Shown piece after piece: positions 21,969 through 51,546 of a DNA stretch of 64,000 bases. Source of the stretch: Candidatus Moraniibacteriota bacterium. GTDB lineage: Bacteria; Patescibacteriota; Minisyncoccia; Moranbacterales; GCA-2747515. The notes beneath the pieces were generated by a model. The model worked only from the letters and a program-made list of their open reading frames with translations. It ran no database searches and had not been told where the DNA came from. Positions within the stretch are counted from its first letter, which is position 1, and each line of letters opens with the position of its first letter. The DNA lies in NCBI GenBank assembly GCA_002747515.1, contig PDPP01000016.1, forward strand, positions 50,369 to 114,368. Direction: 5' to 3'. The translations under genes were made by a program, and so were the position numbers.

Positions 21969-22553
21969 TTAAGAAATGCTTTCACGATTAGTAATTGCAC
22001 TACGAATGGTTATGTCGTCAGCGTATTCAATATCTGATCCTGTGGCAAGTCCTCGGGCAAGTCGTGTGATCTTTATATCAAATTTTTTTAGTTCTCGAGT
22101 TAGGTGCATTGCAGTCATATCGCCTTCTGTAGTGAAATTTGTTGCGATGAGTATCTCTTGAAATTTTTCAGTTTCTACTCTTTGTATAAGCTGTGCAATT
22201 GTGAGATTATCTGTATCACGTTTTTTAATAGTGCCTCCAAGTACATGATAAATACCATTAAAACTGTGAGAACGTTCGATTGGTATGATATCAAGAGGTT
22301 CTTCGACGATGCAGATGTTTGTATTATTACGATTTTCATCAGAACAAATTGTGCAGAGTTCATTTTGTGCGATGTTGAAACATCTTTTGCACGAAGAAAT
22401 GTTTTTTATGTTTTCGAGATCTTGGATAAACTCATTAATCTTTTCTTTATCTTGTTTAAACAAAAATAACACAAGGCGTTCTGCCATCTTTGGTCCGATG
22501 CCAGGAAGAAAGGCAAATTGATTGATGAGTTTTTGAAATGATTTTGGATACAT
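21969..22553 (-). CDS. recR: recombination protein RecR
   Basis: HhH (FLPGIGPKMAERL), C4 zinc finger (CKRCFN...CTICSD) and Toprim. Confidence 0.9.
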   Translation of the reverse strand: MYPKSFQKLINQFAFLPGIGPKMAERLVLFLFKQDKEKINEFIQDLENIKNISSCKRCFNIAQNELCTICSDENRNNTNICIVEEPLDIIPIERSHSFNGIYHVLGGTIKKRDTDNLTIAQLIQRVETEKFQEILIATNFTTEGDMTAMHLTRELKKFDIKITRLARGLATGSDIEYADDITIRSAITNRESIS

Positions 22554-22643
22554 TGTTTAGAATATAGAATGTGGAATTACGATTTGATTGTTTAAAATTC
22601 TTTTTTTGTTGGTAAATAGTAAAAAGAAATTGAGTGTGTATTT

Positions 22644-24062
22644 TCAATGATTATTGTCTTGTGTTTCTTGGTTGATGATTTGGTCAACGTGATGTTTTTC
22701 AAGATTTTTGTATGATGCAGCTTCTTCGTGAAAATACAGTTGTTTTGTACCAACTGGTCCATTACGATGTTTTGCAACAATGATTTCAGCAATACCTTTG
22801 TTTTCTGTGTCTGGGTTGACGCGATCTTCACGGTAAATAAACATGACTACATCGGCATCTTGCTCGATAGAACCAGATTCGCGGAGGTCAGAAAGTTTTG
22901 GTCGTTGATCTGGACGTGATTCAACTGCACGAGATAACTGAGAAAGTGCAATGATTGGGATGTTGAGTTCTTTTGCAAGTGTCTTAAGTCCACGAGAAAT
23001 TTCGGAAATCTCTTGCACGCGATTTTCGCTACTGCGACCTTCCATTAATTGGAGATAATCAATAATAATGAGTCCAAGATCATGCTCTGCTTGAAGTCTT
23101 CGTGCCATAGTGCGCATTTCCATGATATTTGCACTTGATGTATCGTCGATAAAAATCGGCGCTTCAGAAAGTATGCCCATCGTTTCGTTAATGTGTGCAA
23201 AATCAGAATCTTTGAGGTTTCCTGTACGTAATCGCCAGAGATCTAAGTTTGATTCGGCGGCAATCATACGGTCTACGAGTTGATCTGCGGACATCTCAAG
23301 AGAGAAAATGCCAACAGGTATTTTAGTTTTCGTGCCTACTTGACGTGCAATATCAAGTGCAAGTGAAGTTTTTCCGACAGAAGGGCGTGCAGCAAGGATG
23401 ATAAGGTCAGATTTTTGCAATCCAGATAAAAGATCATCAAGGTCCGTAAAGCCTGTTGGCACACCACGCATTTCACCACGGTTTTTGTGAAGTTCATCAA
23501 GTCGATCAAATGCTTCACCAAGAATTGTTTTAATAGATGTAAATTCTTGTTTGAGTGATTTTTGTGAAATAGAGAATAACTTCTGTTCTGCATCATCGAG
23601 TACTTTTTCAATATCTTCTGCTTCATTGTATCCCATTTCATTAATTTCTGCCGCTGCGGAAATTAATCGTCGGAGTACAGATTTTTTTTGAATAATTTTT
23701 GCATAATAAACGATGTTTGATGCACTTGTTACACTGCTGACAAGTGTGGCGAGATATGCAGGACCACCAATTTCATCAATTTTTTTATTTTCTTCAAGTT
23801 TGTTGGAGATGCTTAAAACATCAATTGGATCATTGTTTTCATAGAGTCCAAGCATTGCTTCGTAAATTGTGTTGTGAGCATCTTTATAAAAATCACCAAT
23901 ATTGACAAGGTCTGCAATTTTGGTAATCGCGTCCTTATCTACCATGAGTGCACCTAAAACAGTTTTTTCAGCATCAAGTGAATGTGGTGGCATGCGGAGA
24001 TTTGTGTTTTCAGTCATATGTTTTTTGTGATTTTTATATAAAGGTGTTCTCAAGTATAGCAT
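22644..24062 (-). CDS. dnaB: replicative DNA helicase DnaB
   Basis: PPHSLDAEKTVLGALM N-terminal domain and RecA-like core with GKTSLAL Walker A. Confidence 0.93.
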   Translation of the reverse strand: MLYLRTPLYKNHKKHMTENTNLRMPPHSLDAEKTVLGALMVDKDAITKIADLVNIGDFYKDAHNTIYEAMLGLYENNDPIDVLSISNKLEENKKIDEIGGPAYLATLVSSVTSASNIVYYAKIIQKKSVLRRLISAAAEINEMGYNEAEDIEKVLDDAEQKLFSISQKSLKQEFTSIKTILGEAFDRLDELHKNRGEMRGVPTGFTDLDDLLSGLQKSDLIILAARPSVGKTSLALDIARQVGTKTKIPVGIFSLEMSADQLVDRMIAAESNLDLWRLRTGNLKDSDFAHINETMGILSEAPIFIDDTSSANIMEMRTMARRLQAEHDLGLIIIDYLQLMEGRSSENRVQEISEISRGLKTLAKELNIPIIALSQLSRAVESRPDQRPKLSDLRESGSIEQDADVVMFIYREDRVNPDTENKGIAEIIVAKHRNGPVGTKQLYFHEEAASYKNLEKHHVDQIINQETQDNNH

Positions 24063-24142
24063 TGCTATAATTTTTTGCCCAGTATATAACTCGTGGATAT
24101 GATGTGGAAGAGTTTGGTTACGACTGATAGTGTGGCATGTAA

Positions 24143-24367
24143 TAAAAAAGACCCTGAACAGAAAAGGTCTTATAAATGAGCAAAATGAGCAAGGACTCTG
24201 TTCAGGGTTATTGTGTCACAGTTGTTGTGACATTTTTGAATTGTTGCTTAAGTGTGAATGTCGGCGTATACCCTCCTTCATTAGAATTACTCTAATGAGT
24301 TAAAATTAACCAAATGAAGAACTTTGCAACAACATAAACATTATAGCAGATGATGGTTTTTTATCAA
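24143..24367 (-). ncRNA. candidate small RNA or attenuator leader upstream of dnaB: promoter + ~190-nt structured transcript + intrinsic terminator
   Basis: On the minus strand, TTGATA (24362-24367) - 16 nt - TATAAT (24340-24345); downstream a 10-bp hairpin ccctgaacag ... ctgttcaggg (24151-24206) followed by ucuuuuuu; no credible ORF. Confidence 0.35.
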
Positions 24368-24421
24368 AATTTATCATTTTTATTCGATTAAAGAGTGTGA
24401 AGAAAATGTTTTTTGCAAGAT

Positions 24422-24451
24422 TTGAAGTATTTTGTTGTCAAGAAGTATAAT
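24422..24451 (+). promoter_or_regulatory. sigma70-like promoter (TTGAAG-18-TATAAT) upstream of proS
   Basis: ttgaag at 24422-24427, tataat at 24446-24451; about 218-nt leader to proS. Confidence 0.5.
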
Positions 24452-24668
24452 GCTATATGAAAAAACATATAGTAGTTAAGATTAGATAGTGTTTTTTAGC
24501 AGTGTCACTTGGTTTTATGTGTATTTTATAGTATGATGCGTGTGTTGATAGTTGAAGCTGTTTCATGAAAGTGTATATTGTACAACTTTTTAAAAGTATT
24601 CTGAAGCCCTGCGGGGTATAGGTTTTTCTTTTTTTCAAAAAACGTATAATAACTTATTTTTTAGAACA

Positions 24669-25901
24669 ATGAAACAATCACAACTTTTTACAAAAACGCA
24701 AAAATTTGCACCAAAAGATGAAACAAGTAAAAATGCACAATTGCTAATACGTGCAGGTTTTGTACACAAAGAAATGGCTGGTGTATATAGTTTTTTACCA
24801 TTAGGGTGGCGTGTGATGAATAAAATTATGCACATTATTCGTGAGGAAATGAATGCAATTGACGCACAAGAAATGTTTATGTCCTCTATTCAATCACAAG
24901 AGAATTGGGAAAAAACTGGTCGGTGGAGTGACGAGGTAGTGGATGTGTGGTTTAAAACAAAATTAAAAAATGGAACTGATGTTGGTTTGGCTTTTACACA
25001 TGAAGAAGCAATTACAAATATCATGAAAAACTATATTGCTTCTTATAAAGATTTGCCATTTAGTGCATATCATTTTCAGACAAAATTTCGTAATGAAGTG
25101 CGTGCAAAAAGTGGTGTGATGCGCAGTAGAGAATTTATCATGAAAGATTTGTATTCGTTTATGCGCACACAAGAAGAACATGATGTATTTTATGAAAAAG
25201 CAAAGCAGGCATATATTAATGTATTTGATCGATTAGGAATTGGTGAACAAACATTTGTAACATTTGCGTCAGGTGGAACGTTTAGTAAATATTCTCATGA
25301 GTTTCAAACAGTGTGTGATGCGGGAGAAGATATTATTTATATTAGTGATGAAAAGGGAATTGCGATAAATGAAGAGGTGTATAACGATGAAGTGCTTGCA
25401 GATCTCGGACTGAAAAAAGAAGAATTACGAAAAGAAAAGACTGCAGAGGTTGGAAATATTTTTTCACTTGGCACGAAGTTTTCTGATGGATTTGATTTGG
25501 TATATCGAGATAGTGATGAGAAAAATCATAAAGTGATTATGGGTTCTTATGGCATTGGTCCAGCAAGGTGTATGGGTGTTTTAGTGGAACTTCTTTCTGC
25601 AGAAGAAAAAATGATTTGGCCAAAGGCAGTGTCTCCATTTGATGTGCATCTTATAAGCTTAAATCAAAACGAAAAAGCAAATGAAGTTTATGAAAGATTG
25701 GTACAGGCTGGGGTAGATGTGCTTTATGATGATCGTGATATGCGCTCAGGAGAAAAATTGACTGACGCAGATCTTATAGGATGCAATAAGCGTATTGTTC
25801 TTGGGAAAAATTCACTTGTTAATGGTGTTGTTGAGTTTAGCAGGGGAGGTACGGATATCAAAGAAGTAAAATTTGATGAAATTCCTACATTATTTATGTA
25901 A
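24669..25901 (+). CDS. proS: prolyl-tRNA synthetase, short form lacking the INS editing domain
   Basis: LLIRAGFVHKEMAGVYSFLPLGWRVMNKIMHIIREEM with class II motifs; 410 aa. Confidence 0.85.
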   Translation: MKQSQLFTKTQKFAPKDETSKNAQLLIRAGFVHKEMAGVYSFLPLGWRVMNKIMHIIREEMNAIDAQEMFMSSIQSQENWEKTGRWSDEVVDVWFKTKLKNGTDVGLAFTHEEAITNIMKNYIASYKDLPFSAYHFQTKFRNEVRAKSGVMRSREFIMKDLYSFMRTQEEHDVFYEKAKQAYINVFDRLGIGEQTFVTFASGGTFSKYSHEFQTVCDAGEDIIYISDEKGIAINEEVYNDEVLADLGLKKEELRKEKTAEVGNIFSLGTKFSDGFDLVYRDSDEKNHKVIMGSYGIGPARCMGVLVELLSAEEKMIWPKAVSPFDVHLISLNQNEKANEVYERLVQAGVDVLYDDRDMRSGEKLTDADLIGCNKRIVLGKNSLVNGVVEFSRGGTDIKEVKFDEIPTLFM

Positions 25902-26032
25902 ATGTTAATAACTTGATGGAGGAAAAAGTTTTTTTAAAAAGGTTTTTGTATTATTTTTATTTTGCATGTTTTGAAAATATTTTCCAAAAAAGGTGATAAT
26001 ATTTATGGCATATGTGGTCAATATGCTGACAT

Positions 26033-26063
26033 AAAAAACCGAGAAATTAAGATCTCGGTTTTT
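26033..26063. terminator. bidirectional intrinsic terminator between proS and the yegP-like gene
   Basis: aaaaaa ccgaga ... tctcgg ttttt: A-run on one side, T-run on the other. Confidence 0.6.
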
Positions 26064-26086
26064 GTTATGTTTTTTTGTAGATATTC

Positions 26087-26419
26087 CTATTTTTCTACAT
26101 CAAAAACTTCTGCATCTGGTGCATTTTTTCCTACAGATTTTATGCCATTTTCCATGCTTGTTTTTGATTCGTACATTTCACTTGATCCAATAATTTCTTT
26201 GTTGCGAGCAACAAGGTTAAAAAAGTGCTTTCCATTTTTTGACTCTTTTCGATCAAATTGTGCATCTTTTATGGCATTTGTTTTTACAGAACGAATACCT
26301 GCTTTTGCAGATGCTTTTGTCTGATAACCTTGACTTGCTAAGATTACTTGACCATTTCCAGCTTTAAGGCGAAAATAAAATGTTTGATTATTTCCTTCGT
26401 ATACTTCAAATTTTCCCAT
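26087..26419 (-). CDS. YegP/DUF1508 (UPF0339) family protein, two repeats
   Basis: Tandem ~50-aa repeats (FYFRLKAGNGQVILASQGY, HFFNLVARNKEIIGSSEMY). Confidence 0.6.
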   Translation of the reverse strand: MGKFEVYEGNNQTFYFRLKAGNGQVILASQGYQTKASAKAGIRSVKTNAIKDAQFDRKESKNGKHFFNLVARNKEIIGSSEMYESKTSMENGIKSVGKNAPDAEVFDVEK

Positions 26420-26495
26420 ATTTTTACGTATTTTTAATTATTATGCGAATACTTTTATAATATACTGCTTTTGCAAAAAATGTACAAATCTATAA

Positions 26496-28448
26496 TTATA
26501 TGATGTGCACAGGATCAATATCAATACTCCATTTCGTATCGAGTGTCTTTAGATGAAAATCGAGTTCCTGTGGTAAAGTAGTATTTTCAATTTTGATAAT
26601 AATTTGCTTACGAAATTTTGTGCGTACTTTGTCAACGAGGGGAAAATGAGGTTCGGAAATAACAACATTTGATTTTGTGGATAATATTTTTTTTAAATCC
26701 TCGTACTCTTTTTCTGTAGATTCCTCAACGCTTTTTTTTGTAGTGTCTTTATGCATGAGTTTTATGAGTGTAGTGTATGGAGGATATTTTAATGTTTTTC
26801 GTAATGCACTCTCTTCTTTATGAAATCCATTAAAGTCATATTTTTGCGCATACTGTAATACAGGGTTTTCTGGTTCAAAGGTTTGCACGATTAATTTGCC
26901 ATGTGATGTGCGTAGTGCCATTTGGATTACAAATGAAAATGCACGTTCATTTGTCGTGTAATCCGGAAGACTGAGTAAGTGATCTGCGTCAATGATTGCT
27001 GTGAGTCCGATAGAATTAGTTTGCCAATCTTTTGTAATCATTTGTGTGCCGATAATCACATCAATATTACCTGCTAAAAAATCATCGTAAATCTTTTTTT
27101 GCGCGTGAGTTGCTCCCATAGTGGATGTGTCTACTACAGCAATTCTCGCGTGCAAGATTTGTTTCTTAAGTTCTTTTTGAATTCGTTCTGTACCAATGCC
27201 TACATGTTCCATAGGAGCGTTGCATTTTTGACATTTTTTTGATGATGAAAATTTTGCATTACAATGAATGCAAATATGTTTTTCTTTATTTTTTGCTATA
27301 AGTGCACGTGTACATTGTGGGCAGGTGGCTACGCTACGACATTTTGAACAGATGGAAAAAGCACTCATCCCCTGACGATTAACAAAAAGTAGAGCTTGCT
27401 TGTTGTTTTTAATACAATTTCGTATATGTGCCACAAGCGTACGTGAAAGAGGTGATTTATTTTTATCCCAGCGTTCTTTTTTCATGTCAACAATTTCAAT
27501 TGGGGGTTTTTGATGATTTATGTAATCAATATATTTTCTGTCATGATTTATATTTCTGTATGTAAAATCAATAGTTCGTGGCGTAACTGATGTAAGAATA
27601 TGTACACACTGATGAAGTGAAGCGAGTTCTTCTGATACTCTGCGTACATCATAAAGTGGTGCATGTTCCCACTGTTTGTGAGATATGTCATGTGCATCAT
27701 CGACAATCACAGCGCCAAGATTGGTAAATGGTGCAAATAATGCACTGCGTGTACCAATAATTATTTTGATATTTCCAGATCTGATGTCACACCATTTTTT
27801 ATAGAACATGCCTTTTGACAGTTTGCTATGCAAAATAGCTACTTCTTCAGCAGGAAAAAATTGGTGAATAAATGTAGTAAAATATGGTGTTTGAATAATC
27901 TCTGGAAGGAGATAAAGTGTTTGAGTGGAGTTTTCTGCATTTCTTTTTGCAAGAGAAAAAAGTGTGGATACTTTCTCTGATTGGCGTGTTGCGTGAAAAA
28001 AGAATTTTTTATCATCTGTATATAAAAATTTTTCAATAAAGCTTTCTTGCGTATTTGTTGTAATGATTTTTTTAAGTGATGTTTTTTGAGAAACAGGTTG
28101 TTCACGTCGTGTGCCAATTTTTTGTGGTGTAAAGTGTTTGAGGACGACGCCAAGAGGGCAATAATATTTTTTTGAAATAAAAAATGCAAGTTGCAATTGT
28201 TCTTTTGTGAGAAATTTTTCTTCGATGACCATTTTAATTTTTTTGATTTCAAAAGTGCTTTCACGTGGAAAATCTTTTGTATTTTTTGTGACGATGCCTT
28301 GGACATTTCTTTTGCCAATAGGAATTTCAACATGTGTGCCAGGTGCGAGTGGGCGAGAAAATGTATAAAAAAATGATTGATCACGCAGTAAAGTGATGCG
28401 TGTCAGCGGTGCAACTGATATGAGAAATTGTGTGCTTGTTTTTTGCAT
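26496..28448 (-). CDS. priA: primosomal protein N' (PriA) with degenerate Walker A/B motifs
   Basis: Twin C4 zinc-binding insertion (CSKCRSVATCPQC...CIHCNAKF...CQKCN) and LLPEI/VIVDDAHD helicase motifs; at the P-loop position the sequence reads HATRQSEKVS instead of GxxGSGKT. Confidence 0.85.
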   Translation of the reverse strand: MQKTSTQFLISVAPLTRITLLRDQSFFYTFSRPLAPGTHVEIPIGKRNVQGIVTKNTKDFPRESTFEIKKIKMVIEEKFLTKEQLQLAFFISKKYYCPLGVVLKHFTPQKIGTRREQPVSQKTSLKKIITTNTQESFIEKFLYTDDKKFFFHATRQSEKVSTLFSLAKRNAENSTQTLYLLPEIIQTPYFTTFIHQFFPAEEVAILHSKLSKGMFYKKWCDIRSGNIKIIIGTRSALFAPFTNLGAVIVDDAHDISHKQWEHAPLYDVRRVSEELASLHQCVHILTSVTPRTIDFTYRNINHDRKYIDYINHQKPPIEIVDMKKERWDKNKSPLSRTLVAHIRNCIKNNKQALLFVNRQGMSAFSICSKCRSVATCPQCTRALIAKNKEKHICIHCNAKFSSSKKCQKCNAPMEHVGIGTERIQKELKKQILHARIAVVDTSTMGATHAQKKIYDDFLAGNIDVIIGTQMITKDWQTNSIGLTAIIDADHLLSLPDYTTNERAFSFVIQMALRTSHGKLIVQTFEPENPVLQYAQKYDFNGFHKEESALRKTLKYPPYTTLIKLMHKDTTKKSVEESTEKEYEDLKKILSTKSNVVISEPHFPLVDKVRTKFRKQIIIKIENTTLPQELDFHLKTLDTKWSIDIDPVHII

Positions 28449-29922: not shown

Positions 29923-31439
29923 TAAATAATATAAAGATTATGGCAGAAGAAAAAAAAGATGTTCGTGTACGTTTTGCACCATCGCCAACAGGAGAATTGC
30001 ATATTGGTGGTTTGCGTACAGCACTTACAAATTATCTTTTTGCAAAGAAAAATAATGGCACATTTATTTTGCGAAGTGAAGATACTGATCAGGGACGTTT
30101 TGTAGATGGTGCAGCAAAAAGACAAATTATAGATATGGTGTGGTCTGGCATCACTATTGATGAAGGTGTTGTAATTGATGATAATGGTGATTTAACAGAA
30201 ATTGGTGAATATGGACCATATATACAATCAAAACGTCTTGATATTTATAAAAAATATGTAGAACAACTTCTTGATGAAAAAAAAGCATATCATTGTTTTT
30301 GCACACCGGAGCGCTTACAAGAAATGCGACAAAACCAACAAGCAAATAAAAAAGCGCCAAAATATGATCGCCATTGCTTACATTTCTCAGAAGATGAGGT
30401 GCAAAAACGAATTGAAAGAGGAGAAAAATATGTTGTACGATTTAAGATTCCAGAAGGGAAGACGGCCTTTGATGATTTGGTATACGGGCACATTGTAGTG
30501 GAAAATGATACGCTTGATGATCAAGTAATTATGAAGTCAGATGGATTTCCGACATATCATCTCGCAGTTGTGATAGATGATTATTTGATGAAGATTTCGC
30601 ATGTTTTTAGAGGTGCTGAGTGGATTGCAAGTACACCAAAACACATTTTGCTTTATCAGGCGCTAGGATGGGCAGAAGAAACACCAATCTTTTGTCATAT
30701 GGCAAATATCCTTGATAAAAGCAAAAAGAAACTGTCAAAACGCGACGGTAGTGTGTCAGTAGCAGATTTTCGTAAAGAAGGATATTCTAAGCAAGCCATT
30801 ATCAATTTCATTGCACTTTTGGGCTGGAATCCAAAAACAGAACAAGAGATTTTTAACATGGATGAACTGATCGCACAATTTGATACAGAGAAAATGAACA
30901 AAGCAGGTGGCGTTTTTGATCGTGACCGACTTGCATGGATATCAAAAGAACATATGAAAAAAATGTCTGTTGATGAAATTTATGAAAATGCATTGCCATT
31001 TTTACAAGAAAAAGAATTCTATAAAAATGCATCTGAAGAACAAAAATCAGAAGAGTATATTAAAAAACTTATTACAGTAGAACACGATCGTTTAGAAAAA
31101 TTCACTGACATTGGTGAAGAAAATCAATTTTTCTTTGCACAAGAAATTGTATGTGACAAAGAACTTGTACGCTGGAAAGAAAACAGTGATGCAAAAACAC
31201 AGGAAGCACTGGAAAATGCAAAAGAAGTGTTGTCACACATTGATGAAAATGATTGGACACGTGAGATGCTCGAGAAAAAACTCATGGAAGCAGCAGGTGA
31301 AAAACGCGGAGATTTCCTCTGGCCACTACGCGTTGCACTCACAGGAGAAAAACGCTCACCAAGCCCATTTGACTGCGCATGGGTGCTCGGGAAAGATGAA
31401 ACACTACAACGCATAAAAAACACGTTGCATATAATATAA
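29919..31439 (+). CDS. gltX: glutamyl-tRNA synthetase
   Basis: RFAPSPTGELHIGGLRTAL (HIGH) and KLSKRDGS (KMSKS); 506 aa. Confidence 0.92.
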   Translation: MINNIKIMAEEKKDVRVRFAPSPTGELHIGGLRTALTNYLFAKKNNGTFILRSEDTDQGRFVDGAAKRQIIDMVWSGITIDEGVVIDDNGDLTEIGEYGPYIQSKRLDIYKKYVEQLLDEKKAYHCFCTPERLQEMRQNQQANKKAPKYDRHCLHFSEDEVQKRIERGEKYVVRFKIPEGKTAFDDLVYGHIVVENDTLDDQVIMKSDGFPTYHLAVVIDDYLMKISHVFRGAEWIASTPKHILLYQALGWAEETPIFCHMANILDKSKKKLSKRDGSVSVADFRKEGYSKQAIINFIALLGWNPKTEQEIFNMDELIAQFDTEKMNKAGGVFDRDRLAWISKEHMKKMSVDEIYENALPFLQEKEFYKNASEEQKSEEYIKKLITVEHDRLEKFTDIGEENQFFFAQEIVCDKELVRWKENSDAKTQEALENAKEVLSHIDENDWTREMLEKKLMEAAGEKRGDFLWPLRVALTGEKRSPSPFDCAWVLGKDETLQRIKNTLHII

Positions 31440-31662
31440 GACAACATATGTATATACCATCTTTTGAAAAACTAGTATCACAAAACGAGGTATATCAAAA
31501 AAACTTTGATCAATTTGCAAATGAAAGTGACGTTTTTAATGTATTTGCACAATTATATTTTTAAACCTACTTTTTATTGCACAGCTAATTTGCAAAACAT
31601 ATGGTAAAAATGCTTTTGTGAAAGATATCATATCAGGTTTGGTTCGACGCCTCTAAATACAT

Positions 31663-31693
31663 ACACTACGTAGTATAGTAGTGTGTGGTTTTT
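31663..31693 (+). terminator. orphan intrinsic terminator-like hairpin
   Basis: acactac gtagtata gtagtgt followed by gtgg ttttt; ~230 nt downstream of gltX with no ORF in between. Confidence 0.35.
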
Positions 31694-31990
31694 ATTTGGA
31701 AGTATTTGATTTTGTCACAATGTGTTATGGATATCGTTGGATATTTTGACGTGTGAGTTTTAGACTGTGTGAGGGTGTGCAGAATGTACGATTTCTCTTG
31801 GATATAATGTGCTTATGAATAAAAAGATTTCTTCTTATTTATAAAAAATCTGAAGCACAGAGATTGTGGTAGATGTCATCAATAATATCTTTGTGGTAAA
31901 GCAAAACCGCTCTTGTAATTGCCTATGGAGAGATCTCTGGGTTATCAATATTATGATGTTTTCAGCACGCTCCATGTGAAAAAATGCGTA

Positions 31991-32344
31991 TTAGTTCACT
32001 TTTCGAAATGCGACGCTATATGTTGGCTCATAAAGATTATCATATTCATCACGTACTTCTACAGTTTCACCATCCATCATTGTTGAAAGAGAAATGTCTG
32101 ACATCATTTCTTGGAGAGATTTTATTTCACCTTTGAGTTCTTCAAGTTTTTCCCAACGCATGCCCATATCACGTTGTGCACTAAGCTCATGTTGTTTTTT
32201 AATTTCTCGAAGATCATGTAATTTTTCTATAATTTCTTGATATTTTACATCTTGTACTAAGACGTCTTTATATTCTTTGCGAATTTCTTTCATTTCCTTT
32301 TTTGCCTCTTGCATTTCATTAAAAACTTCTTGCACATCTTTCAT
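31991..32344 (-). CDS. coiled-coil hypothetical protein
   Basis: 117 aa, K/E-rich heptad-like N-terminal region, short beta-rich C-terminus; no family. Confidence 0.4.
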   Translation of the reverse strand: MKDVQEVFNEMQEAKKEMKEIRKEYKDVLVQDVKYQEIIEKLHDLREIKKQHELSAQRDMGMRWEKLEELKGEIKSLQEMMSDISLSTMMDGETVEVRDEYDNLYEPTYSVAFRKVN

Positions 32345-32517
32345 ATATTTTTTAATTAGTATTTATATATACAAAAAATATTATAGCACATAACTGTAGG
32401 GGAGTGGATACTTTAATAAAAAAAAGAGTAATAATATTTTTTTAGAAATTACCGCAAAGTATATATATCATTGTATACAGGACTTTTTATTTTGTAAAAA
32501 TAATTGTAATAATTTTT

Positions 32518-32531
32518 TTATGTCGCACAAT
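32518..32531 (+). repeat. half-site copy (ttatgtcgcacaat) of the dif-like arm
   Basis: Exact 14-mer shared with the copy at 32793 and with both arms of the 33078-33105 palindrome. Confidence 0.6.
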
Positions 32532-32792
32532 ATAAGTAGTATATTTTTCAATTTAATAAGGGGAATATGTGTATAATATAAAATGTAAAAAATATTTGTA
32601 ATATATAGTATTTGTTAAAAACAAAAAAAATTTAAAATAAATTTATGATGAAAATTTTTTATGATGCAAGTCAAAAAATAATAAATTTTTATAAAAAACG
32701 CAATATATTGATATATAAATATACAAATAATAAAATAAGCACAATAAGTTGTAATTTTTCGCATACTATAAGGTATAAATATATTACTTATT

Positions 32793-32806
32793 TTATGTCG
32801 CACAAT
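32793..32806 (+). repeat. half-site copy (ttatgtcgcacaat) of the dif-like arm
   Basis: Same 14-mer, 275 bp from the first copy and 283 bp from the palindrome. Confidence 0.6.
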
Positions 32807-33077
32807 GTATCATCTCTTTTTTAAAGAATGATGGAAAGTTATAACACATATTATCAATCATATAACCTTAACACAAACGGTAAGATCCTAAAATAAGTTT
32901 AGGATGAAAAAAAATGTCTTTGGTTTTATATTATAAAATAGTATTAATTGATTATCATAATGAAAAATGATTATTGATTATACGATAAAAAACAAAGCTA
33001 GGTATCTATACTATATGTAGTAATAAAAACTTAATAAAACACTGTAATATACAAGGTATAGTTGTATATTATATGTT

Positions 33078-33105
33078 ATGTCGCATAATATACATTGTGC
33101 GACAT
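33078..33105. repeat. dif-like Xer recombination site (11-bp arm / 6-bp centre / 11-bp arm palindrome)
   Basis: atgtcgcataa-tataca-ttgtgcgacat. The reverse complement gives ATGTCGCACAA-TGTATA-TTATGCGACAT against E. coli dif GGTGCGCATAA-TGTATA-TTATGTTAAAT: identical central TGTATA and ~20/28 identities overall. It sits in a 1.1-kb AT-rich gene desert at the gene-orientation switch. Confidence 0.55.
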
Positions 33106-33450
33106 ATTATATAAAAATATAATATTTCCCATTTTTCTCTCATTATTACATATATAAAAAATACTTTCGTCTGTACATTTATATAAAAAAGGTGCTCTAC
33201 TACGAAGAAGCTTACATTGTGTCTACACGGTATAATTATGCATTTTATCAACATTGTAGATATACACGCATATATTCAAAAAATTTTTTCTTTTTTTCAT
33301 AAATTTTTCTTTTTCATTTTTATATTGAATAGTAATTTATTTTTTTCAGTATAAAATAGGTGATTAACTCAAAAATTGTTCTCACTTCCCTTTTAGAAAT
33401 TTATACTAAAAAAGACCACTATGCATTATAGCGATCTTTATTCTGAAAAA

Positions 33451-33882
33451 TTATTTTTCAGGTATTTTTTTGCAAAAAAATGTTGTGTTAACTTTAGCGA
33501 ATCCATATTTTTTGTACAGTCCTTGTGCAGCTGCACGGGATTCATGACTTGTTAATTCAACTTGATTTGTTCGAGGATGTCTCATAGCCGCTTCTAGAAG
33601 TTCTTTCATCAATTTATCTCCATAACCATTACCACGTTCATCCTCGTGTACGACAATGTCATTTAATACTGTAATCCAACCGCGTGATTGTGCATAGTAT
33701 TTTGAAAGAGATCCATAAGCAATGATCTTTCCGCTTTTTTCCCCGACAAGACAAAGAATGGGCAACTTTCTCAATTCTTCGACAGTTTTTAATAAACATG
33801 CGTTTGGAGAAAGCTGCTTTAATAACTCATTAATTTCGTCACAAAAATCATCGTCATTGAGTAATCTAATCTTCACTTTCAA
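33451..33882 (-). CDS. GNAT family N-acetyltransferase
   Basis: VHEDERGNGYGDKLMKEL acetyl-CoA binding motif. Confidence 0.75.
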   Translation of the reverse strand: MKVKIRLLNDDDFCDEINELLKQLSPNACLLKTVEELRKLPILCLVGEKSGKIIAYGSLSKYYAQSRGWITVLNDIVVHEDERGNGYGDKLMKELLEAAMRHPRTNQVELTSHESRAAAQGLYKKYGFAKVNTTFFCKKIPEK

Positions 33883-33951
33883 TCCTCCTTTTTGTTAAAT
33901 AATATTTTACAGTAGGATCATATTCTAACATAATGTCAGTACACATGCAAT

Positions 33952-33980
33952 AAAAATCATCTTTTTAAAAGATGATTTTT
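33952..33980. terminator. palindromic terminator after pyrH
   Basis: aaaaatcatctttt aaaagatgattttt. Confidence 0.5.
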
Positions 33981-34015
33981 ACACACTGCCCTACTTTGTA
34001 AATAAACAGGGAAGT

Positions 34016-34726
34016 TTAGTTACTTTTGATAAGAGTACCTTCAAATTTTTCATCATTAAGATACGCTTTGAGGTTTTCTAAATTAGTGCCTTTTAAAGTG
34101 ACTACCTCAATGTCTTCTTTTTCAGCAAATTTAGCAGCAACTGGATCAAATGGCACATTCATACCAGGTGTCCATTTATCTGCATGTGTCATTTCACGAT
34201 ATTCCGCCCATGACAACTCTTCAATTTTTTTTGCATCAGGAAATTCTTGTGGATCTTTATCATAAATATAGTCAATGTTTGACAGATTTACAACTTTTTT
34301 AATGCCAAGGTAACGTGTTAATAATGCAGTATCATAATCAGTGGAAAAACCAGGTTTCCAACCAGCAGCAATCATGATTGGTTGTGTGCACTGATGAAAG
34401 TCTTCTAAATCATGAGGGTTTGTATTGATGCGTGGATGTGCATGATCGCGAAAAATTGTACGAATAAGATGCGCATTCATACGTGTTGCATGAATACCAA
34501 GCCAGTCTTTATCTTCATCATTTACTTCTTCGCAAATTGTACCAGCAGCTTCCGCATAACGTCGTGCTGTCTTACCGCCACCAGTAATAAAAACAAAACG
34601 TTGTTCTTTTGCTTTGATTTGTTCAAGAATTAGAGTACGAAATTCTTTTAGAAAATCAACGTTAATATCATTTGGCACAATGAGAGAACCGCCAAGATTT
34701 ACAATAAATGTTTTTTTTGCATCCAT
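34016..34726 (-). CDS. pyrH: UMP kinase, archaeal-type (amino-acid kinase family)
   Basis: FIVNLGGSLIVPNDINVDFLKEF...VFITGGGKTARRY closely follows the archaeal PyrH pattern (IGGSVL..P....D..FI ... VVGGGKLAR.Y); about 235 aa, shorter than bacterial PyrH. Confidence 0.65.
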   Translation of the reverse strand: MDAKKTFIVNLGGSLIVPNDINVDFLKEFRTLILEQIKAKEQRFVFITGGGKTARRYAEAAGTICEEVNDEDKDWLGIHATRMNAHLIRTIFRDHAHPRINTNPHDLEDFHQCTQPIMIAAGWKPGFSTDYDTALLTRYLGIKKVVNLSNIDYIYDKDPQEFPDAKKIEELSWAEYREMTHADKWTPGMNVPFDPVAAKFAEKEDIEVVTLKGTNLENLKAYLNDEKFEGTLIKSN

Positions 34727-34761
34727 AATTAATTATATATAATTACATATTACTTATAGAA

Positions 34762-35139
34762 TTATTTACATGATGTTGATTTTTGATAACCTTTTTGTAT
34801 TGCATCATTATCTGATATGAAACAGCGAAGGTTTTCTTTTGCAATTTTTTTGGCATATGTACATGATGGCGGATAATATTTTTTGCCTTTTATACTGCCA
34901 ACATATTTACAATTCTTTTTTGTTGTAGCCTCCTCCCCTTCCTCTTCAGTAGTGCAGGGAAGCATGAGTGGTTCTGTTTGTGGATACATTACAGTAATTG
35001 GATCAATTGATAGTCCCCTTCCCTGTAACACCCCAAAAACAAAGCATAGTCCACCAACTACAATCAGCCCTCCTCCATACACCACGTGTTTTTCGTGTAG
35101 TGTAATCCATGAGATTACACGAGAAAACATTCTTTTCAT
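34762..35139 (-). CDS. membrane-anchored protein with Ada-type Zn-binding (PF02805-like) domain
   Basis: GSIKGKKYYPPSCTYAKKIAKENLRCFISDNDAIQKGYQKSTSC fits KYH-P-C-...-N-.-F-S-.-EA-.-GY-.-C. Confidence 0.5.
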   Translation of the reverse strand: MKRMFSRVISWITLHEKHVVYGGGLIVVGGLCFVFGVLQGRGLSIDPITVMYPQTEPLMLPCTTEEEGEEATTKKNCKYVGSIKGKKYYPPSCTYAKKIAKENLRCFISDNDAIQKGYQKSTSCK

Positions 35140-35143
35140 ATCA

Positions 35144-35172
35144 TTGACAACATCTGACTTATTAGCTATACT
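35144..35172 (+). promoter_or_regulatory. sigma70-like promoter for rpmA (TTGACA-17-TATACT)
   Basis: ttgaca at 35144-35149, tatact at 35167-35172. Confidence 0.55.
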
Positions 35173-35227
35173 AGCACAGTATATAAATTTGTAAAAGATT
35201 TATCATTTTTACTAGTAATATCTAATT

Positions 35228-35506
35228 ATGGCACATAGAAAAGCCGGCGGTTCTACAAGACTTGGCCGTGATTCGATATCAAAACGTCTTGGAGTGAAAA
35301 TCTATGGTTCACAAAAAGTAAATGCAGGGAATATTATCGTCCGTCAACGTGGTACAAAAATTCACCCAGCGACAAATGTAGATCGTGGAGAAGATGATAC
35401 ACTCTATGCAAAAAAATCTGGCATTGTACGATTTTTTGACAAAAAAGTATACAATTTTACAGGGAAATTGACAAAACGCAAATATGTAGAAGTTGTAACT
35501 GAATAG
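35228..35506 (+). CDS. rpmA: 50S ribosomal protein L27
   Basis: [16 protein letters not shown]...[15 protein letters not shown]. Confidence 0.92.
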
Positions 35507-35530
35507 TTTTTTACATAGAAAACATTTTTA

Positions 35531-35559
35531 AAAACACCTTTTATAAAGGGTGTTTTTTA
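35531..35559 (+). terminator. intrinsic terminator after rpmA
   Basis: acaccttt tata aaagggtgt followed by tttttt. Confidence 0.65.
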
Positions 35560-35747
35560 TCGTGTAAAAAGGATAAAAATAATAATTTTATAAATTAAGA
35601 TTATCTACAAATTGAATGTAACTTTCCCGAATCCTTAATTTGTTTTTAAAAGTTACAGATAAATCTTATGCTCGTATTTATATAATAAAATAGCACAACT
35701 CTTTTTTGAGTTGTGCTATATGACATATTGGAATATATTATCAATAT

Positions 35748-36341
35748 TTAAACAAAATGCTCAAAAAATTGACAATCTTCCAAAAAGGCATGATTGGAAA
35801 ATCTTTTGATATTTTTTATTGCAAGATTCATTTGAGTATTTGTATTGATGCACGCATCCGTAGCAAATACCCCTGCTTGTGATTTCATAACATTAACAGT
35901 TTTATCAAGCACATCGTTGCATATATTAATTTGTTTGATGATTTCTTTTTCTGGACATATAGTAATAAAATAGTTCATCAAATTCTCATAATCTTTTTGC
36001 CATACTCCTTCTTCATCGATCAAAAGATTCTCTGGAAACCCTTCTATAATTTGTGCCAGATTGTCACAAATCTTATCGGGAATTTGTTTTCCAATTCTCA
36101 TTATAATGATTTCCAATATCATTGCCGACAATGTAATTTGCAAAGAATGATTTATTTTCTTTAAATCTTCTTGCATTTTTTTAAGTTGCTTATGATTCTT
36201 ATGTGATAACATAATCAAACGAACTGCAAGAAACGCCCAAGAAATAATAAACAAGAAAAACATACTTCCATCCATTAGATTCCCTCCCATGAAATATGTA
36301 AAATTCACATTGTTAAAAAACGATAGCATTATTATGTTCAT
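35748..36341 (-). CDS. single-pass membrane protein, hypothetical
   Basis: N-terminal TM then ~150-aa cytoplasmic domain; no family. Confidence 0.35.
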   Translation of the reverse strand: MNIIMLSFFNNVNFTYFMGGNLMDGSMFFLFIISWAFLAVRLIMLSHKNHKQLKKMQEDLKKINHSLQITLSAMILEIIIMRIGKQIPDKICDNLAQIIEGFPENLLIDEEGVWQKDYENLMNYFITICPEKEIIKQINICNDVLDKTVNVMKSQAGVFATDACINTNTQMNLAIKNIKRFSNHAFLEDCQFFEHFV

Positions 36342-51042: not shown

Positions 51043-51546
51043 ATGACATCTACAGAAAATCTCACAAAACATATTGAAGCACTTGAAGAAAAGCGTCTTT
51101 CTGTATTTTTTCACATGCAAGAAATTGCATCAGAGCTTAATGGACGTCTTTATAACTACAATATGTATGTAGGTATTAGTGCTATTATCGTGCTACTTAG
51201 CACGCTACTTTTCAAAGATGTTGATATATTTATTGTGTTGTGGAGCAAAATTTTTGCAATTATTTCTATGATTATTGCTTTTGTACAACATCTTCATGTT
51301 CTTGATCGCAATTCTACAAAAATGTATGAGAATATTCGTACAATTTACAAATCGTATGATGATGAATATGTTGTACTACGCAAATTTAATAGTGGAGAGA
51401 TTAATGAAGAATTGATTAGACAATATTATATTGACAAATCAAAAGAACTTGATCGCTATTCATATAATATTACAACACCAGATTGGTTTACATGGATCGC
51501 ATTATCACTTTTGATTGCATCGATTATTTTACTTACACTTGCATAA
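51043..51546 (+). CDS. membrane protein, hypothetical
   Basis: 167 aa, 3-4 TM helices. Confidence 0.4.
   Translation: MTSTENLTKHIEALEEKRLSVFFHMQEIASELNGRLYNYNMYVGISAIIVLLSTLLFKDVDIFIVLWSKIFAIISMIIAFVQHLHVLDRNSTKMYENIRTIYKSYDDEYVVLRKFNSGEINEELIRQYYIDKSKELDRYSYNITTPDWFTWIALSLLIASIILLTLA

What the first reader, a model, noticed from the sequence alone, without database searches (positions are those of the whole stretch)
24143..24367. Promoter-to-terminator ~190-nt non-coding transcription unit immediately upstream of dnaB (minus strand)
On the minus strand a near-consensus promoter (TTGATA-16-TATAAT, plus-strand coordinates 24340-24367) is followed by a sequence with several stems (ctcattaga..tctaatgag, gtcaca..tgtgac) and a duplicated ttgctcatt motif. 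It ends in a 10-bp GC-rich hairpin (24151-24206) plus a U-run, 80 nt before the dnaB start. It is either an independent sRNA (6S-like size) or a terminator/antiterminator leader regulating the replicative helicase. The only ORF is a 21-codon frame placed before rather than after the SD-like AGGAGG.
Basis: seen in the sequence. Interest (0 to 1): 0.5.

Follow-up and report, generated by a model that had tools for sequence, protein, structure and literature searches.

The report
Orphan small RNA unit upstream of dnaB
A strong promoter, a tightly folded ~190-nt stretch and a solid terminator really do sit upstream of the helicase gene of this uncultured Moranbacteria (CPR) bacterium, but they look like a stand-alone, species-specific small RNA gene in a fast-changing intergenic slot, not a helicase leader or any known RNA family.

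Summary
On the minus strand, TTGATA-16-TGcTATAAT (24367-24340) is one of the two best promoter matches in 64 kb. About 190 nt downstream lies a 12-bp hairpin plus U6 (24208-24144; -19.4 kcal/mol). The RNA folds far better than shuffles (z = -4.9).

- It is not a dnaB leader. dnaB has its own promoter (DnaA-box-like TTCCACA, then TGnTATACT, 24111-24053) downstream of the terminator. That promoter is conserved in 10 relatives, with or without an upstream unit. The terminator forms with probability ~1 and has no antiterminator.
- It is not 6S-like. No Rfam family matches; the best hit is a chance-level RyhB match (22.8 bits against a gathering score of 55).

The promoter and 5' domain have no homologue anywhere I could search. 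In the closest relative (DnaB 94% identical) both flanks of the intergenic region are ~78% conserved, but the middle, including the unit, is replaced. Only hairpin B and the big hairpin leave traces there.

The proS-dnaB spacer varies from 127 to 1162 bp in the genus and carries different promoter-to-terminator cassettes.

Best reading: an orphan, probably non-coding small transcript of unknown and possibly weak function. Ordinary in kind, modest interest.

The parts
24340..24367 (-). Promoter: -35 TTGATA (24367-24362), 16-nt spacer, extended -10 TGcTATAAT (24348-24340)
   Evidence: Scores 11/12 plus TG, one of only two such sites in the 64-kb window (shuffles give 0.3). Several of the other >=11/12 sites sit in front of genes, e.g. 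26524 before the DUF1508 gene and 50982 before the ORF at 51043.
24143..24333 (-). Predicted ~190-nt transcript. The TSS is inferred at G24333, 7 nt after the -10; the 3' end lies in the U-run 24149-24144.
   Evidence: MFE -50 kcal/mol, z = -4.9. No Rfam family matches. The TSS and 3' end are inferred, not measured.
24240..24333 (-). 5' domain (nt 1-94): 8-bp closing stem 24333-24326/24247-24240, inner stems, and apical hairpin A (24298-24291/24285-24278)
   Evidence: Pair probabilities are 0.7-1.0 for the closing stem and ~0.8 for hairpin A. The body alone gives z = -3.2. No homologue in any relative.
24271..24278 (-). SD-like AAGGAGGG in an internal loop, with no start codon 4-12 nt downstream
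   Evidence: The genome hardly uses SD: 3 of 46 long ORFs in the window and 1 of 31 in relatives.
24216..24281 (-). 21-codon ORF (MKEGIRRHSHLSNNSKMSQQL), judged unlikely to be translated
   Evidence: Its AUG is paired in hairpin A. It has no homologue among the small ORFs of relatives' intergenic regions.
24214..24232 (-). Hairpin B: UGUCACA-ACAAC-UGUGACA, followed by the spacer CAAUA
   Evidence: Pair probabilities 0.75-1.0. Nearly the same stem and spacer (AUGUCAC-GAU-GUGACACAAAU) occur in L162 at 2205-2222, directly after that locus's promoter.
24151..24208 (-). Terminator hairpin: 12 perfect pairs (ACCCUGAACAGA/UCUGUUCAGGGU) and a 34-nt loop
   Evidence: dG -19.4. The 3' arm plus T-run resembles those of L164, L001 and L009, whose 5' arms compensate. 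Against L162, 11 of 12 pairs are kept, 3 of them through changes on both sides.
24174..24192 (-). Perfect tandem 9-nt duplication in the terminator loop (UUGCUCAUU x2 on the RNA)
   Evidence: This motif and the terminator produce the weak RyhB-like match. Its complement AATGAGCAA occurs nowhere else in the window.
24144..24149 (-). U6 tract of the intrinsic terminator
24053..24111 (-). Boundary feature, not part of the unit: dnaB's own promoter block. It contains DnaA-box-like TCTTCCACA (24111-24103) and ATATCCACG (24100-24092), GGGCAAAAAA, and extended -10 TGcTATACT (24061-24053).
   Evidence: Conserved in 10 relatives, with TG.TATA.T invariant (A2). The core is 39/40 identical to L162. L165 has a perfect TTATCCACA at this position.
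24110..24506 (.). Variable middle of the proS-dnaB intergenic region. It holds the whole unit and cannot be aligned with the closest relative.
   Evidence: The flanks 24506-24697 and 24018-24110 are 77-79% identical to L162; the middle is not alignable. A local alignment of the two middles is not significant: 39 of 300 shuffles reach its score.

Best explanation
The unit is a stand-alone small RNA gene specific to this species.

**How it most likely works**
- RNA polymerase starts about 7 nt after a strong extended -10 promoter (24367-24340).
- It makes a ~190-nt RNA that folds into a 94-nt closed 5' domain, a 7-bp hairpin B and a 12-bp terminator hairpin.
- It stops at the U6 tract (24149-24144), 126 nt before the dnaB start.

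**What it is not**
- The RNA is most likely non-coding.
- It is not a dnaB leader. The terminator also acts as an insulator, keeping this transcription out of dnaB's own DnaA-box/TGnTATACT promoter immediately downstream.

**Age of the parts**
- The 3' module (hairpin B plus terminator hairpin) is the older part and leaves traces in relatives.
- The promoter and 5' domain are recent, in an intergenic slot that turns over quickly in this genus.

**Function.** If the RNA has a sequence-specific function, the likeliest mode is base-pairing through its exposed single strands. These are the 34-nt terminator loop with UUGCUCAUU x2 (complementary to AUGAGCAA-type start regions) and the AAGGAGGG internal loop. 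Constraint on it appears weak.

**Shown:** promoter, fold and terminator quality; dnaB's own promoter; absence of the unit from relatives.
**Inferred:** that it is transcribed, its 5' and 3' ends, that it is non-coding, and any function in trans.
For: - **Promoter:** 11/12 plus TG, one of two such sites in 64 kb against 0.3 expected. Sites of this strength mostly precede genes here.
- **Terminator:** dG -19.4 kcal/mol, like gene-end terminators in the window, with pair probabilities ~1.0.
- **Fold:** z = -4.9 for the whole RNA and -3.2 without the terminator.
- **Coding:** no start codon follows the SD-like motif, the 21-codon ORF's AUG is buried in a stem, and the genome is essentially SD-less.
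- **dnaB's own promoter** is conserved in 10 relatives regardless of what lies upstream.
- **Analogous units in relatives:** L162, L001, L009 and L170 carry promoter-to-terminator units of unrelated sequence in the same slot.
- **3' module in L162:** found at the syntenic place with 11 of 12 stem pairs kept, 3 through changes on both sides. It is the best non-self covariance-model hit in 0.5 Mb of sequence.
Against: - There is no expression data.
- The promoter and 5' domain have no homologue in about 170 related loci, including a relative with 94% identical DnaB whose flanking non-coding DNA is ~78% conserved. Purifying selection on most of the RNA is therefore not demonstrable.
- The perfect tandem duplication in the putative seed loop and an SD without a start codon look like drift or decay.
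- The covariance-model support for the 3' module is weak: E = 0.29 over the 0.5 Mb searched (both strands), and an unrelated terminator scores as high.
- No target stands out among 53 translation-initiation regions in the window.
- Both strands fold well.
Confidence: 0.55

Rival explanations
1. Decaying relic of an SD-led mini-ORF cassette. Relatives carry, in the same slot, transcription units with canonical SD+ATG mini-ORFs of 7-45 codons. The window's unit would be one whose start codon was lost. It may still be transcribed but has no sequence-specific function beyond its terminator.
For: - L001, L009 and L170 have GGAGG/AAGGAG motifs 4-10 nt before an ATG in the same slot, although these genomes otherwise lack SD (1 of 31 long ORFs).
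- The window has the same strong motif (AAGGAGGG) with no start codon after it.
- GCCGACATT after the window's motif loosely resembles GCCTATGATT in L001 and L170; this comes from reading the sequences, not from a test.
- The slot turns over rapidly and the loop carries a perfect tandem duplication.
Against: - No significant sequence similarity links the window's unit to any of those cassettes.
- The mini-ORFs are not conserved among themselves either.
- A relic would not be expected to keep a near-consensus promoter and a fold at z = -4.9.
Confidence: 0.2
2. Upstream promoter plus attenuator of dnaB. Transcription from 24367-24340 would be terminated or read through at 24151-24208 to tune helicase expression.
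For: The unit is on the same strand as dnaB and directly upstream of it. A structured RNA followed by a terminator is the classic leader layout.
Against: - No alternative pairing competes with the terminator. Its pair probabilities are 0.93-1.0, and its 5' arm stays unpaired in the truncated transcript.
- A conserved promoter lies between the terminator and dnaB.
- The unit is absent from relatives with 88-94% identical DnaB, some with only 127-338 bp upstream.
- No Rfam leader or riboswitch matches.
Confidence: 0.05
3. Antisense partner of a small plus-strand gene, like a type I toxin-antitoxin pair (Ibs/Sib type). The 39-codon plus-strand ORF 24176-24295 (MSKMSKDSVQGYCVTVVVTFLNCCLSVNVGVYPPSLELL) would be a membrane peptide, and the minus-strand RNA its fully complementary repressor.
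For: - The ORF lies wholly inside the unit and has a hydrophobic core (maximum Kyte-Doolittle 1.99 over 17 aa).
- The plus strand is also highly structured.
- A weak plus-strand promoter-like site lies at 24075-24103.
Against: - No homologue among 1.84 billion representative proteins, apart from one chance-level repeat hit, and none in relatives' intergenic regions.
- Equally hydrophobic chance ORFs are common in these AT-rich spacers.
- A plus-strand mRNA would have to read through the 12-bp hairpin and then a terminator-like hairpin with a T-run at 24213-24243, both inside the ORF.
- The candidate promoter scores only 9/12 and lies in the conserved dnaB promoter block.
Confidence: 0.05
4. 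Not a gene at all. A promoter-like sequence arose by chance in AT-rich DNA upstream of an old insulator terminator, and there is little or no stable RNA product.
For: - AT-rich genomes generate promoter-like hexamers: in 22000-27000, 24 sites reach 9/12 or better against 20.4 in shuffles.
- The terminator predates the unit; it is shared with L164, L001 and L009.
- The rest of the unit is not conserved.
Against: A site of this strength is expected only 0.3 times per 64 kb on both strands, or about 0.0015 for one strand of this 650-bp spacer. It also coincides with a body whose fold is at z = -3.2 without the terminator.
Confidence: 0.1

Closest known systems
Intergenic trans-acting sRNAs with their own promoter and an intrinsic terminator (for example RyhB of enterobacteria, or its functional analogue FsrA of Bacillus)
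   Same: It has its own sigma-70-type promoter and a length of 100-250 nt. It folds into several stem-loops and ends in a Rho-independent terminator. It lies in an intergenic region between divergently transcribed genes. The loop motif UUGCUCAUUUUGCU resembles the RyhB core, and cmscan aligns the region to RF00057.
   Different: The RyhB match is 22.8 bits against a gathering score of 55, with E = 0.13 in a 1-kb search, so it is at chance level. There is no evidence of Hfq, Fur or any target. The RNA is not conserved beyond one species, and its 34-nt 'seed' loop contains a fresh tandem duplication.
6S RNA (Rfam RF00013)
   Same: Similar size (~190 nt) and a highly structured fold.
   Different: No covariance-model match even at E<=10. 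The fold is not a rod closed by the 5' and 3' ends with a central bubble: the 5' end pairs with nt 87-94, and the 3' end is a terminator hairpin.
Transcription-attenuation leaders and riboswitches (promoter, structured leader, terminator, gene)
   Same: It has the same strand and order as the downstream gene. A closed 5' domain is followed by a terminator.
   Different: It has no antiterminator. A conserved independent promoter lies between the terminator and the gene. The unit is absent from close relatives that keep the gene and its promoter.
Promoter-to-terminator cassettes in the same proS/dnaB slot of sister species (L162, L001/L171, L009/L170)
   Same: They occupy the same position and strand and have the same layout: a promoter, 105-800 nt of structured RNA, then a GC hairpin plus T-run just before dnaB's DnaA-box promoter. 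Strong SD-like motifs occur in otherwise SD-less genomes. L162 shares hairpin B and the big hairpin.
   Different: The sequences are unrelated apart from the 3' module and terminator. Cassettes in L001, L009 and L170 contain SD+ATG mini-ORFs. L001 and L009 also carry an AAGGGAAAU...hairpin...GCCCU motif that the window lacks.

Membership tests
Stand-alone bacterial sRNA gene (generic class) | Own promoter on the same strand | tested here: met
   TTGATA-16-TGcTATAAT scores 11/12 plus TG. Two such sites occur in 64 kb against 0.3 in shuffles.
Stand-alone bacterial sRNA gene (generic class) | Intrinsic terminator at the 3' end | tested here: met
   12-bp stem, dG -19.4 kcal/mol, U6, pair probabilities ~1.0.
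Stand-alone bacterial sRNA gene (generic class) | No translated ORF | tested here: inconclusive
   Only a 21-codon ORF exists, and its AUG is paired. No start codon follows the SD-like motif. The small ORFs have no homologues. Translation cannot be excluded from sequence alone, especially in an SD-independent organism.
Stand-alone bacterial sRNA gene (generic class) | Discrete transcript observed | not testable with these tools
   No transcriptome data are available. The only other record of this strain is a metagenome contig (L161, SRR6011893).
Stand-alone bacterial sRNA gene (generic class) | Conservation or covariation in related genomes | tested here: not met
   The promoter and 5' domain are absent from all ~170 related loci. 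Only the 3' module has a weak syntenic match in L162 (20.2 bits).
6S RNA (RF00013) | Match to the Rfam covariance model | tested here: not met
   No hit at gathering over the window, nor at E<=10 over 23800-24800.
6S RNA (RF00013) | Rod-like fold closed by the 5' and 3' ends, with a central bubble | tested here: not met
   The MFE and ensemble give a 94-nt 5' domain plus two independent 3' hairpins.
RyhB (RF00057) | Score at or above the family gathering threshold | tested here: not met
   22.8 bits against 55; E = 0.13 in a 1-kb search.
Terminator/antiterminator leader of dnaB | A mutually exclusive antiterminator structure | tested here: not met
   Terminator pair probabilities are 0.93-1.0. 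Its 5' arm is unpaired in transcripts truncated before the 3' arm.
Terminator/antiterminator leader of dnaB | No independent promoter between the terminator and the regulated gene | tested here: not met
   A conserved TTTTCCACA...CAAAAAA...TGnTATACT block lies at 24111-24053 and is present in 10 relatives.
Terminator/antiterminator leader of dnaB | Co-occurrence with the gene in relatives | tested here: not met
   Relatives with 88-94% identical DnaB lack it; their intergenic regions are 127-562 bp.
Type I toxin-antitoxin (Ibs/Sib-like) | Small hydrophobic ORF antisense to the sRNA | tested here: inconclusive
   A 39-aa plus-strand ORF has a Kyte-Doolittle maximum of 1.99, but chance ORFs in neighbouring spacers score as high.
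Type I toxin-antitoxin (Ibs/Sib-like) | Toxin mRNA with its own promoter and an uninterrupted reading frame | tested here: not met
   The only plus-strand candidate promoter scores 9/12. The ORF contains the 12-bp hairpin and a terminator-like hairpin with a T-run at 24213-24243.
Type I toxin-antitoxin (Ibs/Sib-like) | Homologous peptide elsewhere | tested here: not met
   One chance-level hit among 1.84 billion representative proteins and none in relatives' spacers.

The most novel reading that the evidence does not exclude
In this Moranbacteria genus, the spacer in front of the replicative-helicase promoter may be a dedicated hot spot. Small transcription units would be exchanged or reinvented there quickly. 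Each has a promoter, a structured RNA and an insulator terminator. Most carry canonical Shine-Dalgarno motifs, with or without mini-ORFs, in genomes whose ordinary genes do not use SD at all. The window's RNA would be one allele of such a system. Possible roles include SD-bearing RNAs or mini-peptides that engage a special ribosome state, or that couple to DnaA-controlled dnaB expression. On this reading it would not be a random orphan sRNA.
Probability: 0.1. Interest if true: 0.6.

Novelty: new member of a known kind. Interest (0 to 1): 0.3.

Why it matters
Small RNAs of CPR/Patescibacteria are almost unstudied, and this window has no Rfam match at all. A well-delimited candidate with a near-consensus promoter and terminator is therefore a useful probe for metatranscriptomes.

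What the analysis mainly shows is more ordinary:
- The helicase gene has its own conserved promoter with DnaA-box-like elements.
- The upstream unit is a species-specific add-on in a rapidly changing spacer.

If the hot-spot reading were right, it would point to a class of SD-bearing small transcripts in SD-independent bacteria. That reading is not established here.

Tried and rejected
1. **Rfam.** A gathering scan of the whole window gave nothing. An E<=10 scan of 23800-24800 gave only a chance-level RyhB hit plus eukaryotic snoRNA/miRNA noise. An Rfam scan of the closest relatives L001, L002, L009 and L081 gave nothing.
2. **Sequence search of the unit.** blastn and nhmmer against 80, then 169, related loci found only L161, which is the same strain (100% over 3573 nt).
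3. **Collection scans.** One genome contigs and one metagenome-contig scan were both spent on DnaB to obtain syntenic loci. The unit itself could therefore not be searched in those collections.
4. **Phage and plasmid collections** (distant blastn) and viral contigs (two motif patterns) gave nothing meaningful.
5. **The L001/L009 motif in viral contigs** gave 17 hits, which I judged about what chance would give, without computing an expectation. I did not follow them up.
6. **Origin of replication?** Rejected. The GC skew switches from + to - at ~32-33 kb, which marks a terminus, and no TTATCCACA match with one mismatch or fewer lies in the spacer.
7. **Repeated or mobile element?** The variable segment has no second copy in the window; the best match is a 26-nt AT-rich stretch.
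8. **Small ORFs.** An all-against-all comparison across 11 spacers found no family that includes the window's ORFs. The 39-aa ORF has no real homologue among 1.84 billion proteins.
9. **Target search.** Duplex energies against 53 start regions in the window were no better than for shuffled sRNA. The method is crude and the genome incomplete.
10. **Covariance model of the 3' module.** The syntenic L162 hit ranks first among relatives, but an unrelated terminator scores as high, so homology is suggestive only.
11. **Local alignment of the two variable middles (window vs L162).** Collinear but not significant: 39 of 300 shuffles reach the score.
12. **Literature search** for sRNAs in Patescibacteria returned nothing relevant.
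13. **Fur check.** Pfam on ten small ORFs of the window found no Fur family member.

Full report
**What is there**

Reading the minus strand from 24367 gives a promoter, TTGATA, 16 nt, TGcTATAAT. Seven nt after the -10 the sequence GUUGUUGC begins. The 191 nt from 24333 to 24143 fold into three parts:
- **5' domain (nt 1-94).** It is closed by an 8-bp stem (24333-24326 / 24247-24240; pair probabilities 0.7-1.0). It has inner stems and an apical 8-bp hairpin A (24298-24291 / 24285-24278).
- **Hairpin B.** A 7-bp hairpin at 24232-24214.
- **Terminator.** A 12-bp perfect hairpin (24208-24197 / 24162-24151; pair probabilities 0.93-1.0) with a 34-nt loop, followed by C and U6 (24150-24144).

The loop holds a perfect tandem 9-nt duplication (24174-24192).

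The fold is far better than chance:
- MFE is -50 kcal/mol with z = -4.9.
- Without the terminator z is -3.2.
- The hairpin's -19.4 kcal/mol lies within the range of gene-end terminators in this window.

The promoter is also unusual. Only seven sites in the 64 kb, both strands, reach 11/12 (shuffles 3.7 +/- 1.4). Only two have the TG as well (shuffles 0.3), and this is one of them. Several of the other strong sites sit in front of genes. One example is the site at 26524, which precedes a DUF1508 gene.

The reverse strand folds nearly as well (z = -3.9). The strand assignment therefore rests on the promoter and the U-run.

**Organism and context**

DnaB relatives place the window in Candidatus Moraniibacteriota (CPR/Patescibacteria). 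The best species representatives are 82-86% identical.

The unit lies in a 651-bp spacer between dnaB (minus, 22644-24017) and a divergent proline-tRNA ligase gene (plus, 24669-25901).

The genome hardly uses Shine-Dalgarno sequences. Only 3 of 46 long ORFs in the window have even a weak one, and 1 of 31 in relatives.

The GC skew changes sign at ~32-33 kb. The window therefore spans a replication terminus, not an origin.

**Not a dnaB leader**

Between the U-run and the dnaB start lies a conserved block:
- DnaA-box-like TCTTCCACA (24111-24103) and ATATCCACG (24100-24092);
- GGGCAAAAAA;
- an extended -10, TGcTATACT (24061-24053).

Aligned with nine relatives, the pattern TTTTCCACA...CAAAAAA...TG.TATA.T is conserved whatever lies upstream (A2). 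L165 has a perfect TTATCCACA at this place.

The ORF-maximal ATG at 24062 overlaps this -10. The real start is therefore ATG 24017. The protein then begins MTENTNLRMPPHSLDAEK, and NCBIfam's replicative DNA helicase model matches from residue 1.

No upstream segment competes for the terminator's 5' arm. It stays unpaired in truncated transcripts, and the terminator dominates the ensemble.

Relatives with 88-89% identical DnaB have spacers of only 127-338 bp.

**Not a known RNA family**

Rfam finds nothing at gathering in the whole window. With permissive settings on 1 kb, the best hit is RyhB at 22.8 bits (gathering 55, E = 0.13). That hit is driven by the UUGCUCAUUUUGCU loop motif and the terminator. 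There is no 6S match, and the fold is not 6S-like. ARAGORN finds no tRNA or tmRNA.

**Comparative evidence**

The unit occurs only in L161, a Logan contig of the same strain (100% identity). A protein search found closer relatives than the contig scans had, and I fetched their loci.

In the nearest one (L162, DnaB 94%):
- The proS-proximal ~190 nt of the spacer are 79% identical to the window.
- The dnaB-proximal ~120 nt are 77% identical, with a 39/40 identical core.
- The middle, window 24110-24506, which contains the whole unit, cannot be aligned. A local alignment is collinear but not significant, since 39 of 300 shuffles reach its score.

Across the genus the spacer ranges from 127 to 1162 bp.

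Several species have their own promoter-to-terminator unit in this slot:
- **L162:** TTGATG-16-TATACT, then ~215 nt.
- **L001 and L171:** ~340 nt.
- **L009 and L170:** ~800 nt with two or three cassettes.

These cassettes are unrelated in sequence to the window's unit. The cassettes of L001, L009 and L170 carry strong SD+ATG mini-ORFs of 7-45 codons, in genomes that otherwise lack SD.

**What is shared: the 3' end**

The terminator's 3' arm and T-run (CTGTTCAGGGTCTTTTTT) have positional counterparts in three loci: L164 (ATTGTTCAGGGATTTTTT), L001 (TTGTTCGGGGTTTTT) and L009 (ATTCGGGGGCTTTTT). Their 5' arms compensate.

L162 has AUGUCAC-GAU-GUGACACAAAU directly after its promoter, followed by a hairpin CUCGAGCAGA/UCUGCUCGAG. 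Aligned to the window's module, 11 of 12 stem pairs are kept. Three are kept through changes on both sides (C-G to U-A, U-A to C-G, A-U to G-C), one through a single change, and one is broken.

A covariance model of the window's 98-nt 3' module ranks this syntenic L162 site first among non-self hits (20.2 bits). The E-value is 0.29 over the 0.5 Mb searched (both strands) and 0.022 over seven loci. An unrelated terminator scores 21.4 bits, so the support is suggestive, not proof.

I conclude that the hairpin-B-plus-terminator module is older. The promoter and the 94-nt 5' domain are a recent, lineage-specific addition.

**Coding potential**

- No ATG, GTG or TTG follows the AAGGAGGG motif at SD spacing.
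- The 21-codon ORF starts with an AUG buried in hairpin A.
- The plus-strand 39-codon ORF has a hydrophobic core, but chance ORFs in neighbouring spacers are as hydrophobic. It has no homologue among 1.84 billion representative proteins. It also spans two hairpins, one of them terminator-like on that strand.

**Mechanism and rivals**

I commit to a stand-alone, probably non-coding ~190-nt transcript (confidence 0.55). Its terminator also insulates dnaB's promoter from upstream transcription. If it acts in trans, the exposed terminator loop and the AAGGAGGG loop are the likely pairing surfaces. No target appears among the 53 start regions available.

Three things argue for weak constraint: the absence of the unit from relatives, the fresh duplication in the loop, and an SD motif with no start codon after it.

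The rivals are:
- a decayed mini-ORF cassette (0.2);
- chance promoter, with no stable RNA (0.1);
- a dnaB attenuator (0.05);
- a type I toxin-antitoxin-like antisense pair (0.05).

**Verdict**

In kind it is an orphan intergenic sRNA candidate, a new member of a known class. Interest is modest (0.3).

The more intriguing possibility is that this spacer is a hot spot for SD-bearing small transcription units in SD-independent bacteria. It is not excluded, but it is only weakly supported (probability ~0.1).

Noticed in passing
window 24053-24139 (minus strand); L162, L163, L164, L165, L168, L001, L009, L170, L171 upstream of dnaB: dnaB's promoter region is strongly conserved across the genus: TTTTCCACA, then ~8 nt, then (T)CCAC/ACAC, then CAAAAAA, then TGnTATACT. 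The first element is one mismatch from the DnaA box TTATCCACA, and L165 has the perfect box. The window has two such boxes, plus a weaker third copy (CATGCCACA, 24139-24131) in a ~29-nt insertion. This suggests that DnaA controls the helicase gene.
   Followed up: partly
window ~30000-36000; dif-like copies near 32520, 32796 and 33078-33110: The GC skew flips from + to - at ~32-33 kb, in a 29-30% GC stretch with convergent gene orientation, so this looks like the replication terminus. Three copies of TTATGTCGCA(C/T)AAT occur there. The last is a palindromic dif-like site, ATGTCGCATAATATACATTGTGCGACAT. This could be a Xer site with integrated elements between the copies.
   Followed up: no
whole window; loci L001, L009, L162-L171: Genes almost never have a Shine-Dalgarno sequence: 3 of 46 long ORFs in the window and 1 of 31 in relatives. 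Start codons are preceded by A/T-rich sequence instead. Yet the proS-dnaB spacers of L001, L009 and L170 contain six canonical SD+ATG mini-ORFs of 7-45 codons.
   Followed up: partly
L009 2411-2465 and 2704-2758; L001 2714-2763 (L171 has the 3' half): A repeated structured motif follows the mini-ORFs: (A/G)AGGGAAAU, a variable hairpin, then UAA(U/C)GCCCU(C/U). The AGGG/CCCU pairing covaries at its flanks ((G)AGGG/CCCU(C) versus (A)AGGG/CCCU(U)). There is no Rfam match. It was found only in these loci among the 169 held at that point.
   Followed up: partly
window ~24600-24612 (plus strand, ~60 nt upstream of proS); same place in L162, L163, L001, L009: A small CCC-loop-GGG hairpin (ACCCCGCAGGGC on the minus strand) keeps its stem while its loop varies (CGCA, CGAA, CACT, CTAC). 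On the plus strand a T-rich run follows it, just before proS's TATAAT. It may be a weak insulator terminator or a protein-binding site. The ~190 nt next to proS are 79% conserved with L162.
   Followed up: no
window 25962-26324 (+) versus 26087-26419 (-): The 120-codon plus-strand ORF has no family match and spans proS's terminator (26034-26063). The real gene here is on the minus strand: a 110-aa DUF1508 protein (E = 1.8e-42). It is served by the 11/12 promoter at 26524-26495, which lies inside the 3' end of priA.
   Followed up: yes
L162 2205-2459: The gene caller lists an 84-codon ORF that starts exactly at the predicted transcription start of L162's unit, so it would be leaderless. It runs through the conserved dnaB promoter block. 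The window reads that block in a different frame, so the block is not conserved as coding sequence. Whether the ORF is real is unknown.
   Followed up: partly
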